Below the pieces are notes generated by a model. That model was not told the DNA's origin. It did not search any database and saw only the letters and a list, made by a program, of their open reading frames with translations. This document shows, in pieces, positions 44,209 through 46,550 of a stretch of DNA of 64,000 bases (positions are counted from its first letter, which is position 1; every line of letters begins with the position of its first letter). A program made the position numbers and the translations under genes. Location of the stretch: NCBI GenBank assembly GCA_021735655.1, contig JAIPGM010000003.1, positions 64,001 to 128,000 of the forward strand, written 5' to 3'. The stretch comes from Candidatus Omnitrophota bacterium (lineage in GTDB: Bacteria; Omnitrophota; Gorgyraeia; Duberdicusellales; 4484-171).

Positions 44209-44912
44209 GGAAATTGGTAATATTTTTATTATTAGTGGTGAGTTTTCAGTTTTTAAGCTATGGTCAAAGTATTAAGGAACGCTTTAAGGGGCAGGATAAG
44301 CTAATTTATGAGGTTTACTACAATGGGATGTTTTCCGGTCATATCTATTGGAGCTATAAAGGGACTGAAAAGGTTGAAGGCGGGCTGGCTGATGTGATCC
44401 ACGTAAGTTCTGATACTAAGATTTTAGGCTTACTGGATTTAACCAGCGATGAAGATGTTTTCCTTGATTCGGAAAATCACCTTCCGCTTAAAGTAAAGCG
44501 AAATATAGTTATGTTTGGCAAGAAAGAGCTGATTGATGAGATTTACGATCAGGGAAAAGGTTTTGTGCGGTTAATTATAAGAGGCGATGAAGCCAGAGAG
44601 GAAATTATTTCTCAGGATAAGCCAATTCATAATATTTTGGCCTTGCTTTATTTTTTCCCGCAAAATGTTAAGTTAGAAAAAGATCGATGGATGAACTTCA
44701 ATCTTCCTACCCAAAAGATAAAGATAAAATTTATCAAAGAGCGACCTCTAAAAACAGATACTGGAGAAGTTGATACTTATTTTTTAATTGGTAGGGGGGC
44801 CAAGCGCTTTAGTCTCTGGATGGATAAAGTTACCCGCATGCCTCTGCGTCTTGAGTTTGTTTCTCTTCTAGGAAAGGTTAGCATTGTGAGAGCCGAAGAA
44901 AACCAGCCTTAA
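44205..44912 (+). CDS. Secreted hypothetical protein (DUF3108-like), translationally coupled to the patatin gene
   Basis: It has a 4-nt ATGA overlap with the upstream stop. The signal peptide reads 'MRKLVIFLLLVVSFQFLSYGQ', followed by a beta-rich remainder. Confidence 0.4.
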   Translation: MRKLVIFLLLVVSFQFLSYGQSIKERFKGQDKLIYEVYYNGMFSGHIYWSYKGTEKVEGGLADVIHVSSDTKILGLLDLTSDEDVFLDSENHLPLKVKRNIVMFGKKELIDEIYDQGKGFVRLIIRGDEAREEIISQDKPIHNILALLYFFPQNVKLEKDRWMNFNLPTQKIKIKFIKERPLKTDTGEVDTYFLIGRGAKRFSLWMDKVTRMPLRLEFVSLLGKVSIVRAEENQP

Positions 44913-45514
44913 TTAAGAGTCATCGTTGTTACAATGTCGTCACAGCTGTATTCGTGTCCATCTGGGCCAAATGAAAGTAAAACCGGAGGAGCAATGGGTG
45001 TAGCTGTGCTGCCGCCGTTAGCCACACAAACTTCTCTGGCTGAGGAATTATCGCAGGCTGAATCGCTGTAAACATTTTCACATGGGCTAACTCCACCGCA
45101 GCCCGGTGGAGCACAAAAAGCGTAATCAGGGTCATATAAATAGGCATTTTTCCAGAAGTCAAGGCCATTACTTTCAATATATGGGCCATCCCAGGCATTA
45201 ACTGCACCTTGGGTCCATTGGCAGCCGCCAACAGGAGCTGCCTCGAAGTCTGGTTTTGTAATAAGACCGGCATTTGAGGCATTGATATAAGTTTCAGGAT
45301 CTGTTTGAGTAAAAGCTAAACAGCCTCTAATAACCTTTCCAGTGTCAGCATAAAGGGCAGTAGTTCCAGTTTTTATTGATTTTAAATCAGCAGTTGTCTT
45401 AGCTGCCCGGGCTTTCTCAATTGCTTTAAAAGCATTGGGTGCGATTATTGCAGCTAGAATGGCAATGATCGCGATAACTACGATTAGTTCAATAAGCGTA
45501 AATGACTTTTTCAT
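44909..45514 (-). CDS. Type IV pilin-like / T2SS pseudopilin (prepilin-type N-terminal cleavage/methylation domain)
   Basis: '[35 protein letters not shown]' is a class III signal peptide with the G/F-T-L-I-E motif and a hydrophobic helix. The ATG is at 45514; the ORF-track start at 45517 is a TTG extension. Confidence 0.8.
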   Translation of the reverse strand: [201 protein letters not shown]

Positions 45515-45683
45515 CAAAATACCTCCTTTTAAAGCATTGTATCATTGATTGAAAAAATTTTAAATTAGATTGATTGGTTATAATTTGTTATTTAGGATTA
45601 TAGGAAATGAGGATAGTTTTGACATTCTAGAGGAAAAGATTGAAAGTCTGCCAGTGATGCTGTATCCAGGAGGTTAGTTTATA

Positions 45684-45812
45684 TTATTCAACATCCCCTA
45701 TTTCAGCTATAGGATCATAATATTCTGATTCCACTTGGTTTGCTGAGGGCGTAGTTTTTTGCGAAGAACAGGCCATTGTCATAACTATAGCTAATAATAA
45801 AAATATTTTCAT
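45684..45812 (-). CDS. Candidate 42-aa micro-lipoprotein between the two pilin genes
   Basis: The RBS 'aggag' precedes the ATG. The ORF translates to 'MKIFLLLAIVMTMACSSQKTTPSANQVESEYYDPIAEIGDVE', a signal peptide with a lipobox-like 'TMAC'. It falls below the ORF-track length cutoff. Confidence 0.3.
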   Translation of the reverse strand: MKIFLLLAIVMTMACSSQKTTPSANQVESEYYDPIAEIGDVE

Positions 45813-45887
45813 CTTAACAATACTCCTGGTTAATTTTAAATAAAAATCCGATCAATTTTTTCGTTTTTAACTTAACTAATTAAAAAC

Positions 45888-46493
45888 CTAATCGGGATAA
45901 GTCTGAATGAACATGTCGTAAGAATAATATTGCTTCTGAGCAGCAGCATAATACCTTCTATGGCGACCGCTGTTATATACGCCGTCATCGGTTATTTCAT
46001 CTATTTTATCTAGAATTTTTTGAGGCATTCCACAAGTATTAGTCGCTGGCGAAACCGGAGAATAACAACGAAAGTAACGAGTATAACGCACACCTCTAGC
46101 CCAAGAGAGTGTAGTTCTGGCGTCATAGAGTAGATAATTAGTTCCACCCCAACGATTTAGAGCTGACATTTTTTCCATGTAAGGGCCTTCCCAGCCGAAC
46201 CACCCAGAAGCATTAGTCATTAAATTGCTGGGATCCCAGCCAGTATATTGAGTGTCGTCGAGCCTTGCGTAATTGTATCCAGTGGCTGGCATAGTGGCTC
46301 GCCATCCCGGAAAATGACCGGTATCTGCATATAAAGACATTATTGCTGTTTTAAGACTCTTTGCCTCAGCTATGTCAGCAGAGATTTTGGCCTTCTCAAT
46401 TGCTTTAAAAGCATTGGGTGCGATTATTGCAGCTAGAATGGCAATGATCGCGATAACTACGATTAGTTCAATAAGCGTAAATGACTTTTTCAT
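45888..46493 (-). CDS. Type IV pilin-like / pseudopilin paralog
   Basis: The first 33 codons and RBS are nucleotide-identical to the neighbouring pilin gene. The C-terminal globular domain diverges ('[29 protein letters not shown]...'). The ATG is at 46493. Confidence 0.8.
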   Translation of the reverse strand: [201 protein letters not shown]

Positions 46494-46506
46494 CAAAATA
46501 CCTCCT
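46393..46506. repeat. 114-bp segment 100% identical to 45414-45527 (pilin RBS + first ~33 codons)
   Basis: Direct comparison of the two loci shows identity over 'ttctcaattgctttaaaagcattgggtgcgattattgcagctagaatggcaatgatcgcgataactacgattagttcaataagcgtaaatgactttttcatcaaaatacctcct'. Flanking sequence is unrelated. Confidence 0.8.
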
Positions 46507-46550
46507 GTAAAAAAGTATATCATTAATTGGGGGTAATTTCAAATCGAAGT

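What the first reader, a model, noticed from the sequence alone, without database searches (positions are those of the whole stretch)
44909..46523. Tandem pseudopilin paralogs share a 114-bp perfectly identical 5' segment while the rest diverges
45414-45527 and 46393-46506 are 100% identical over the RBS plus codons 1-33 (class III signal peptide and N-terminal helix). The flanking upstream sequence and the C-terminal globular domains are unrelated. Absolute identity confined to this block, inside otherwise divergent genes, points to gene conversion/recombination. This is the substrate needed for cassette-like shuffling of pilin heads onto a constant N-terminus, an antigenic or functional variation mechanism. 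A third paralog at 61375, next to pilD, has the same protein N-terminus but diverged codons.
Basis: seen in the sequence. Interest (0 to 1): 0.5.

Follow-up and report, generated by a model that had tools for sequence, protein, structure and literature searches.

The report
Gene-conversion patch between neighbouring pilin genes
Two neighbouring pilin-like genes of an uncultured Omnitrophota bacterium share a real, perfectly identical 114-base start, which is best read as the footprint of a recent copy-paste recombination (gene conversion) between neighbours and not as a programmed system for swapping pilin heads.

Summary
Window 45414-45527 and 46393-46506 are 100% identical over 114 nt: 13 nt of leader with the RBS, plus codons 1-33. 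The two genes are same-strand, GspG-like pilin genes A (44909-45514, -) and B (45888-46493, -). Their heads are only about 29% identical. It is not an assembly artefact: an independent k=31 assembly of the source run breaks exactly 30 nt inside the block at all four boundaries.

The genes belong to a large Omnitrophota family, up to 36 copies per genome, with an invariant N-terminal peptide. Other paralog pairs encode that peptide with about 80% nucleotide identity. None of 747 non-adjacent within-genome pairs shares more than 59 exact nt. Three of 23 adjacent tandem pairs, from three different MAGs, share 95-114 exact nt. A-type heads occur in other genomes, so the A/B split is old and the patch is recent.

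This is short-tract gene conversion between neighbours, confined to the only stretch that keeps homology, and it leaves the protein unchanged. Cassette shuffling or antigenic variation is not supported: both genes are complete and have their own promoters. The window holds no silent cassettes, no recombinase and no G4 motif, and direct repeats can only delete or amplify. Over evolutionary time, heads at syntenic loci do turn over. Ordinary in kind; modest interest.

The parts
44909..45514 (-). Pilin-like gene A (201 aa, [10 protein letters not shown]...). Prepilin-type N-terminus plus a GspG-like head. Its stop overlaps the stop of the convergent DUF3108 gene.
   Evidence: ORF and translation. 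PF07963 and TIGR02532 hits; TIGR01710 scores below its cutoff. Identical to NCBI protein P0001 of a Candidatus Omnitrophica MAG. AF2 model pLDDT 80; best PDB matches are GspG, EpsG and PulG.
45888..46493 (-). Pilin-like gene B (201 aa). Same N-terminus as A; head about 29% identical to A's.
   Evidence: Identical to P0115. Head comparison.
45414..45527 (-). Copy 1 of the 114-nt identical block: 13-nt leader with RBS plus codons 1-33 of A.
   Evidence: Logan k=31 contigs end at 45443 and start at 45498, which is 30 nt inside each edge of the block.
46393..46506 (-). Copy 2 of the 114-nt identical block: 13-nt leader with RBS plus codons 1-33 of B.
   Evidence: Logan contigs end at 46422 and 46477, which is 30 nt inside each edge of the block.
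45536..45564 (-). Promoter-like site of A (TTTAAA-17-TACAAT with a TG extension). It ends about 8 nt before the block.
   Evidence: The same layout occurs in other family members.
46514..46542 (-). Promoter-like site of B (TTGAAA-17-TATACT with a TG extension). It ends about 7 nt before the block.
45684..45812 (-). 42-aa ORF between B and A (MKIFLLLAIVMTMACSS...), with a signal-peptide-like start. It lies inside the 979-nt repeat unit and would be lost if the repeats recombined.
   Evidence: Translation. Called as a gene on the Logan contig L069. No Pfam hit and no homologue in any fetched locus.
61375..61992 (+). Third paralog C. It has the same N-terminal peptide with diverged codons, so it serves as an internal control.
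59378..60199 (+). Prepilin peptidase (PilD type). One gene (aroC) separates it from C.
   Evidence: PF06750 at 3e-36 and PF01478 at 2e-12. The order pilD-aroC-pilin is conserved in L101 and L007.

Best explanation
A and B are two old, independently transcribed members of a large Omnitrophota family of type IV pilin-class (GspG-like) proteins. The first roughly 34 residues of this family are invariant. A recent, non-programmed, short-tract homologous recombination event (interlocus gene conversion) copied the leader/RBS and the first 33 codons from one neighbour onto the other.

The tract is confined to the one stretch where the paralogs still keep about 80% nucleotide identity, because the peptide is under extreme purifying selection. 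It stops where homology stops. The event changed only synonymous sites and the 13-nt leader, so it had no effect on the proteins.

Its by-product is a 114-bp perfect direct repeat 979 bp apart. That repeat is now a substrate for deletion (fusing B's promoter to A's head, and losing B's head and the 42-aa ORF) or for tandem amplification.

Shown: the identity, its boundaries, its reality in the reads, its rarity in the family, its association with adjacency, and the greater age of the A/B split. Inferred: the molecular mechanism (RecA-type conversion), its recency, and its neutrality.
For: 1. Exact 114-nt block bounded on both sides by divergent sequence.

2. Internal and family-wide control.
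- The same 25-residue peptide is encoded at a mean of 61.8/75 nt identity within genomes and 59.5/75 between genomes; the median longest shared run is 14 nt.
- A-C and B-C are each 73/87.

3. Association with adjacency.
- Only 3 of 770 within-genome pairs are fully identical, and all three are adjacent same-strand tandem genes with divergent heads. They come from three different MAGs: the window, L043 (JAIPHU01, 107 nt) and L060 (JAHKAJ01, 95 nt).
- That is 3/23 adjacent pairs against 0/747 non-adjacent pairs, Fisher p=2e-5.
- The L060 case is reproduced 100% on a contig (L105) from the separate metagenome collection.

4. The block is real. Logan k=31 contigs of SRR12088349 match the window at 100% and end exactly k-1=30 nt inside the block at each of the four edges: L068 ends at 45443, L069 spans 45498-46422, and L067 ends at 46477.

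5. The A/B split is old. A's head is 48-52% identical to heads in other MAGs (L029, L017) but only 29% identical to B's.

6. No machinery for programmed variation is present.
Against: - No population data or close relative exists. The closest homologue of A in 5.8 billion proteins is 67% identical, and exact-block scans of the genome and metagenome collections found nothing. Donor, recipient and timing therefore cannot be established.
- The syntenic locus of a related MAG (L063) holds a single pilin gene. The event that built the tandem pair could itself have created the duplicated 5' module, rather than a later conversion.
- The adjacency statistic includes the index case. Without it the count is 2/22 against 0/747.
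- Short-read assemblies cannot carry identical blocks longer than their k-mer, so longer or non-adjacent conversions may be under-sampled.
Confidence: 0.74

Rival explanations
1. The duplicated 5' module was created by the rearrangement that built the tandem pair, not by a later conversion. For example, A (with the 42-aa ORF) could have been inserted next to a resident B by recombination anchored in the conserved N-terminal region, or by unequal crossing-over in an older array.
For: - The syntenic locus in MAG JBAYNQ01 (L063/L143) has one, B-like, pilin between GCD14 and DUF3108, with flanks 57-83% identical.
- A-type heads sit at other loci in other genomes.
- Copy number differs at another syntenic locus: 1, 1 and 2 genes in L001, L048 and L041.
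- L039 shows a probable recent whole-gene tandem duplication.
Against: - A single crossover between about 80% identical segments gives reciprocal hybrids, not two identical copies.
- The patch is bounded on both sides, which is the signature of conversion.
- In L043 and L060 the same kind of patch sits in arrays of otherwise divergent genes.
Confidence: 0.13
2. Programmed cassette-like shuffling of pilin heads onto a constant N-terminus, for antigenic or functional variation.
For: - There is a constant 5' module with variable heads.
- The family is large, and heads at syntenic loci are often non-orthologous between genomes.
Against: - Both genes are complete, with their own promoters.
- There are no silent or truncated cassettes in 64 kb.
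- The window has no recombinase or RT and no G4 motif.
- The repeats are direct, and the homogenised part is the invariant one, so nothing varies.
- Only 3/23 adjacent pairs show a block.
Confidence: 0.04
3. Assembly or consensus artefact: two similar repeats falsely made identical, or a chimeric join.
For: The source is a short-read MAG, and no second assembly of full-length A or B exists in the protein collection.
Against: - An independent k=31 assembly of SRR12088349 reproduces all flanks at 100% and branches exactly at the four block edges.
- About 80% identical copies share no k-mers that an assembler could merge.
- The same pattern occurs in two other MAGs, one of which is reproduced 100% on a contig of the separate metagenome collection.
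Confidence: 0.03
4. Selection at the nucleotide or RNA level keeps the two 5' mRNA ends identical, for example a shared regulatory RNA target or structure.
For: The block starts near the predicted transcription start and includes the RBS.
Against: - There is no Rfam match.
- C, and dozens of other paralogs with the same peptide and a similar promoter layout, differ freely at synonymous sites.
Confidence: 0.03

Closest known systems
Interlocus (ectopic) gene conversion and concerted evolution of bacterial paralogs (e.g. cases catalogued in PMC6053082; homogenising versus diversifying conversion as defined in PMC8223754)
   Same: A patch of elevated identity, including synonymous sites, between old paralogs. 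It is bounded by divergent sequence and favoured by proximity.
   Different: Here only about 114 nt of a 600-nt gene is homogenised. The patch coincides with a segment whose protein sequence is already invariant, so conversion is not what keeps the peptide constant. Most pairs are saturated at synonymous sites.
Neisseria pilE/pilS pilin antigenic variation (PMC3547852, PMC6796969)
   Same: Pilin genes, RecA-type gene conversion, and a constant N-terminus with variable heads.
   Different: In Neisseria the variable region moves from promoterless, 5'-truncated silent copies into one expression locus, and the process depends on a G4 and an sRNA. Here the constant region was copied between two complete expressed-type genes, with no silent copies and no G4.
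Moraxella tfpQ/tfpI invertible pilin switch (Piv recombinase). This comparison rests on my own knowledge and was not checked in a paper here.
   Same: Two alternative pilin heads share one N-terminal coding segment.
   Different: That system needs inverted orientation and a site-specific recombinase. Here the repeats are direct and no recombinase is encoded in the window.
Expanded prepilin-motif (N_methyl) protein families of Planctomycetes, with 41 to about 100 genes per genome (PMC8567305)
   Same: A related phylum; dozens of genes per genome share a prepilin-type N-terminus attached to diverse C-terminal parts.
   Different: Members of the Omnitrophota family are short (median 193 aa) and have GspG-like heads, not SBP_bac_10/DUF1559 domains. 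Their N-terminus is identical over about 30 residues across genomes.

Membership tests
Type IV pilin / pseudopilin class (class III signal peptide proteins) | Prepilin-type N-terminal cleavage/methylation motif | tested here: met
   PF07963 scores 28 bits (cutoff 21.2) and TIGR02532 scores 22.6 (cutoff 16.3) for both A and B.
Type IV pilin / pseudopilin class (class III signal peptide proteins) | Glu at +5 and a hydrophobic alpha1-N helix followed by a globular head | tested here: met
   The sequence is F1-T-L-I-E5. The AF2 model has a helix at 7-58 plus a small head, with pLDDT 80.
Type IV pilin / pseudopilin class (class III signal peptide proteins) | Gly at -1 of the cleavage site | tested here: not met
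   A and B have Ser at -1 (MKKS|F); C has Gly. Across the family the residue is Ser in 60, Gly in 52, Ala in 9 and other residues in 14 of 135 proteins. Whether the local PilD cleaves after Ser is unknown.
Type IV pilin / pseudopilin class (class III signal peptide proteins) | Cognate prepilin peptidase in the genome | tested here: met
   Window 59378-60199 hits PF06750 and PF01478.
GspG, the T2SS major pseudopilin (TIGR01710 equivalog) | Score above the curated cutoff, and a GspG fold | tested here: not met
   TIGR01710 scores 48.8 (A) and 44.3 (B) against a cutoff of 88.85, and only the N-terminal 50-60 residues match. The fold search puts GspG/EpsG/PulG first, but weakly (E=1e-3, TMt 0.67). 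The proteins are GspG-like, not demonstrably GspG.
Interlocus gene conversion between paralogs | A tract of near-identity bounded on both sides by divergent sequence, with synonymous sites included | tested here: met
Interlocus gene conversion between paralogs | The tract is younger than the paralog split (incongruence with the rest of the gene and with orthologues) | tested here: met
   A's head is 48-52% identical to heads in other MAGs but 29% identical to B's. Other pairs encoding the same peptide are about 80% identical at the nucleotide level.
Interlocus gene conversion between paralogs | Non-reciprocal transfer shown directly (donor and recipient, dependence on RecA) | not testable with these tools
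   The organism is uncultured, no closer relative than 67% identity exists, and no reads were available.
Neisseria-type pilin antigenic variation | Promoterless, 5'-truncated silent cassettes donating variable sequence to one expression locus | tested here: not met
   tblastn of the A, B and C heads against the window hits only the three complete genes. The rest of the genome was not available.
Neisseria-type pilin antigenic variation | G-quadruplex-forming initiator next to the expression locus | tested here: not met
   There is no G3+N1-7 x4 motif anywhere in the 64 kb.
Site-specific invertible pilin switch (Moraxella type) | Inverted repeats flanking an invertible segment, plus an adjacent recombinase | tested here: not met
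   The repeats are direct. No recombinase family was found among the window ORFs scanned.

The most novel reading that the evidence does not exclude
The invariant 5' module (leader plus signal peptide plus alpha1-N) may act family-wide as a portable recombination anchor in Omnitrophota. Local conversion would keep renewing perfect repeats between neighbours. Those repeats would then drive rapid expansion, contraction and replacement of pilin heads at fixed chromosomal loci. The result would be a 'one stem, many heads' repertoire engine for the attachment pili of these ultra-small, probably host-dependent bacteria. Partial support: heads at syntenic loci are often non-orthologous and copy number varies, and about 1 in 8 adjacent pairs carries a fresh patch.
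Probability: 0.15. Interest if true: 0.55.

Novelty: new member of a known kind. Interest (0 to 1): 0.3.

Why it matters
- The block is direct sequence evidence that homologous recombination between paralogs is active in the small genomes of uncultured Omnitrophota.
- The constant 5' module of their very large pilin-like family is the place where that recombination acts.
- It flags a 114-bp perfect direct repeat that makes this locus prone to deletion or amplification and that breaks low-k assemblies.
- The family survey gives a background rate: about 13% of adjacent pairs and 0% of distant pairs carry such a block.
- The result does not reveal a new variation mechanism.

Tried and rejected
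- Scans of genome contigs and metagenome contigs for 36 exact nt of the block found nothing. No close strain is available, so no population test was possible.
- Exact look-ups of P0001, P0173 and P0116 were not on record.
- The Rfam search of 44000-47500 found nothing.
- The G4 search found nothing.
- The tblastn search for silent head cassettes in the window found nothing beyond the three genes.
- Pfam scans of nearly all larger window ORFs found only housekeeping and glycan-biosynthesis genes, with no recombinase, RT or transposase.
- The degenerate-pattern scan of metagenome contigs added few independent adjacent pairs, because 33 of its 73 loci duplicate genome loci.
- The L039 pair (75/75 identity) was set aside. 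The identity also covers the promoter region and the contig ends inside the second gene, so it looks like a recent whole-gene duplication and its heads cannot be compared.
- I did not try to infer which gene was the donor, because synonymous sites between genomes are saturated.
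Full report
**Observation**

The window is 37% G+C. At offset 979 the longest exact run is 45414-45527 = 46393-46506, 114 nt (seen also). A search for the block (113 of its 114 nt) allowing 3 mismatches finds only these two copies, with 0 expected in 100 shuffles.

Both copies lie at the 5' ends of two same-strand (-) genes. Gene A is 44909-45514 and gene B is 45888-46493, each 201 aa and each beginning [35 protein letters not shown]. 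The block is 13 nt of leader (GGAGGTATTTTG, the RBS) plus codons 1-33 and two bases of codon 34.

Third codon positions are identical at 33/34 in codons 1-34 and at 8/32 in codons 35-70. Without the N-terminus the two heads are 29% identical (E=4e-5), so they are distant homologues and not unrelated.

A third paralog, C (61375-61992, +), encodes the same peptide, but 13 of 29 codons differ synonymously.

A PilD-type prepilin peptidase is present at 59378-60199. aroC lies between it and C, so 'next to pilD' is only approximately right.

**Is the block real?**

A and B are identical to NCBI proteins of a Candidatus Omnitrophica MAG, on a 278,835-bp contig. Flanking proteins of the window are also encoded on contigs of an independent assembly (Logan, k=31) of run SRR12088349.
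- L068 equals window 39205-45443.
- L069 (925 nt) equals window 45498-46422.
- L067 equals window 46477-52312, fetched in reverse orientation.
- All three match at 100%.

Each contig end lies exactly 30 nt (k-1) inside the block. That is what a de Bruijn graph gives for an exact repeat with precisely these four boundaries. Other family members share at most short exact runs (median 14 nt), so an assembler could not have merged two diverged copies. An artefact is therefore very unlikely. Which flanks are joined through the repeat rests on the MAG assembly alone.

**What the genes are**

Both carry the prepilin N-terminal methylation motif (PF07963, TIGR02532) and match GspG, PilA and ComGC models only over the N-terminal 50-60 residues, below the curated cutoffs. 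An AlphaFold model of A (26-sequence alignment, pLDDT 80) has a long N-terminal helix and a small head. Its best PDB matches are the T2SS major pseudopilins GspG, EpsG and PulG, weakly (E=1e-3, TMt 0.67).

Each gene has its own sigma-70-like promoter with an extended -10. For B it is TTGAAA-17-TATACT at 46542-46514, and for A it is TTTAAA-17-TACAAT at 45564-45536. Each ends 7-8 nt before the block. The weak similarity just upstream of the block reflects a promoter layout shared by family members in other genomes.

**The family background is the key control**

A degenerate pattern for the peptide [25 protein letters not shown] retrieved 61 loci from species-representative genomes. All are Omnitrophota or mislabelled 'Planctomycetia' MAGs. 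One MAG (JAHKAJ01) has 36 copies, CAZFML01 has 19 and CAZVRU01 has 8.

The peptide is invariant across genomes, yet the 75 nt encoding it are on average only 61.8/75 identical within genomes and 59.5/75 between genomes. Purifying selection on the protein keeps the peptide constant, and synonymous sites are free to diverge.

Only three within-genome pairs are 75/75:
- window A/B, with a 114-nt run;
- L043 3939/4537 in MAG JAIPHU01, with a 107-nt run starting at the ATG;
- L060 2635/3237 in MAG JAHKAJ01, with a 95-nt run.

All three are adjacent, same-strand tandem genes whose heads are only 25-37% identical. That is 3 of 23 adjacent pairs against 0 of 747 non-adjacent pairs (maximum run 59 nt), Fisher p=2e-5. 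Without the index case it is 2/22 against 0/747. The L060 case is reproduced at 100% on a contig of the separate metagenome collection, L105. Some adjacent pairs have runs of 41-43 nt at 70/75 identity and may be older, eroded tracts. A fourth 75/75 pair, in L039, is also identical through most of the promoter region and is cut by the contig end. It looks like a recent whole-gene duplication and was not counted.

**Age of the paralogs**

A's head is 48-52% identical to heads in MAGs JAHKAJ01 (L029) and CAZFML01 (L017), and 67% and 60% overall to P0002 and P0003. It is only 29% identical to B's head. B has its own relatives: P0116 at 58% overall, and heads about 37% identical in JAHKAJ01. The A/B split therefore predates the separation of these genomes, between which synonymous sites of the N-terminus are saturated. 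The identical block must be far younger than the genes.

**Mechanism**

A patch of perfect identity, bounded on both sides, between old neighbouring paralogs, restricted to their only homologous stretch, is the signature of short-tract interlocus gene conversion. The dependence on adjacency fits recombination between nearby sequences.

The rest of this paragraph is inference from general knowledge of RecA-dependent recombination. That process needs a few tens of bp of near-perfect homology, and this family offers that only marginally (95th percentile of shared runs is 29 nt). Because the peptide was already identical, the event changed no amino acid. The resulting 114-bp direct repeat, 979 bp apart, can now mediate deletion of B's head, the 42-aa ORF and A's promoter, or tandem amplification.

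**Against programmed shuffling**
- There are no promoterless or truncated head copies in the window.
- No recombinase, invertase, transposase or reverse transcriptase was found among the window ORFs scanned, which are housekeeping and glycan-biosynthesis genes.
- There is no G4 motif and no Rfam element.
- The repeats are direct, not inverted.

**Evolutionary turnover**

The syntenic locus of MAG JBAYNQ01 (L063/L143: patatin, DUF3108, pilin, GCD14 methyltransferase, iPGM) has flanks 57-83% identical but only one pilin, with a B-like head at 35% identity.

The order pilD-aroC-pilin is conserved in L101 and L007, with pilD 76-81% and aroC 72-76% identical, yet the pilin heads there are only about 30% identical to C's.

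Between JAHKAJ01 and CAZFML01, two of three syntenic pilin loci hold non-orthologous heads, and the best match of each lies at another locus. The RsmA-pilin-SNF locus holds 1, 1 (a different head) and 2 genes in three genomes.

Pilin content at fixed loci therefore turns over. Birth-and-death in arrays, differential loss, or replacement would each explain this, and recombination in the constant module is a plausible but unproven driver.

**Comparison with known systems and verdict**

The closest known phenomenon is ordinary interlocus gene conversion and concerted evolution of bacterial paralogs (PMC6053082, PMC8223754). It differs from Neisseria pilE/pilS variation (PMC3547852, PMC6796969) in every defining feature tested here. 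Large prepilin-motif families are known in the related Planctomycetes (PMC8567305). The main Omnitrophota survey reports near-universal type IVa pili but does not describe this family or any conversion in it (PMC10066038).

Verdict: a real, well-supported but ordinary recombination footprint. It is a new member of a known kind, of modest interest.

Noticed in passing
window 45502/46481 (A, B) and 135 family members in loci L001-L143: The residue before the predicted prepilin cleavage site is Ser in A and B. Across the family it is Ser in 60, Gly in 52, Ala in 9 and other residues in 14 of 135 distinct proteins, and leaders are mostly 4 residues long (MKKS|F). Gly at -1 is usually considered near-obligatory for PilD-type peptidases (my own knowledge).
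   Followed up: partly
L006-L066 (genome contigs) and L071-L143 (metagenome contigs): This is a very large Omnitrophota family of short (median 193 aa) GspG-like proteins. One MAG (JAHKAJ01) has up to 36 copies, and tandem arrays reach five genes (L032, L060). All share an identical N-terminal peptide of about 30 residues across genomes.
   Followed up: partly
e.g. L024:305 and 1102, L036:541, L060:4028 and 4742, L062:6217, L063:4875: Many family members have an extended -10 box (TGATATAAT or TGGTATAAT) ending 7 nt before the ATG, with no Shine-Dalgarno sequence. This suggests leaderless mRNAs. Other members, including A and B, have the same -10 box followed by GGAGG.
   Followed up: no
window 45684-45812 (-): A 42-aa ORF with a signal-peptide-like start and a Cys at position 15 (MKIFLLLAIVMTMAC) lies between B and A, preceded by AGGAG. 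It has no Pfam hit and no homologue in any fetched locus.
   Followed up: partly
L002 11301-11429 (-) (also in L003 and L004): A 42-aa ORF that is a diverged, truncated pilin N-terminus (MAKKHFALIELIVIIVIVAILATIIAPRAFISVEKAYVGASQ*) sits directly downstream of a full pilin gene. It is probably a remnant of a lost paralog.
   Followed up: no
window 59378-61992; L101 3126-5583; L007 1651-4446: The gene order pilD-aroC-pilin is conserved in at least two other genomes. The pilin heads at that position are only about 30% identical, while pilD and aroC are 72-81% identical.
   Followed up: partly
L063 1576-7085 (same as L143): In MAG JBAYNQ01 the locus syntenic with window 42361-48641 carries a single, B-like pilin gene with a leaderless-type promoter where the window has A, the 42-aa ORF and B.
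   Followed up: yes
L039 1-900 (MAG JBAZTA01, contig start): Two adjacent pilin genes are identical through about 63 nt of promoter (a few mismatches) and at least 109 nt of coding sequence. The contig ends inside the second copy. This is probably a recent whole-gene tandem duplication that broke the assembly.
   Followed up: partly
window 44909-44912: Gene A (-) and the convergent DUF3108 gene (44205-44912, +) overlap by their last 4 nt (the overlap includes both stop codons), so no intergenic terminator can lie between them.
   Followed up: no
window 1-26300: This is a long same-strand cluster of glycan and envelope biosynthesis genes. It includes DegT aminotransferases, GT2 and GT9 glycosyltransferases, a Wzy_C O-antigen ligase-like protein, a sugar transferase, a B12-radical SAM enzyme and an ATP-sulfurylase. 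It appears unrelated to the finding.
   Followed up: no
L001, L005, L070 (Logan contigs of SRR12088349): The same sequencing run carries further family members on contigs that match NCBI MAG contigs of 322,746, 278,835 and 69,921 bp. I could not determine whether all belong to one genome. Their N-terminal DNA shows only the usual 79-86% identity to the block.
   Followed up: partly
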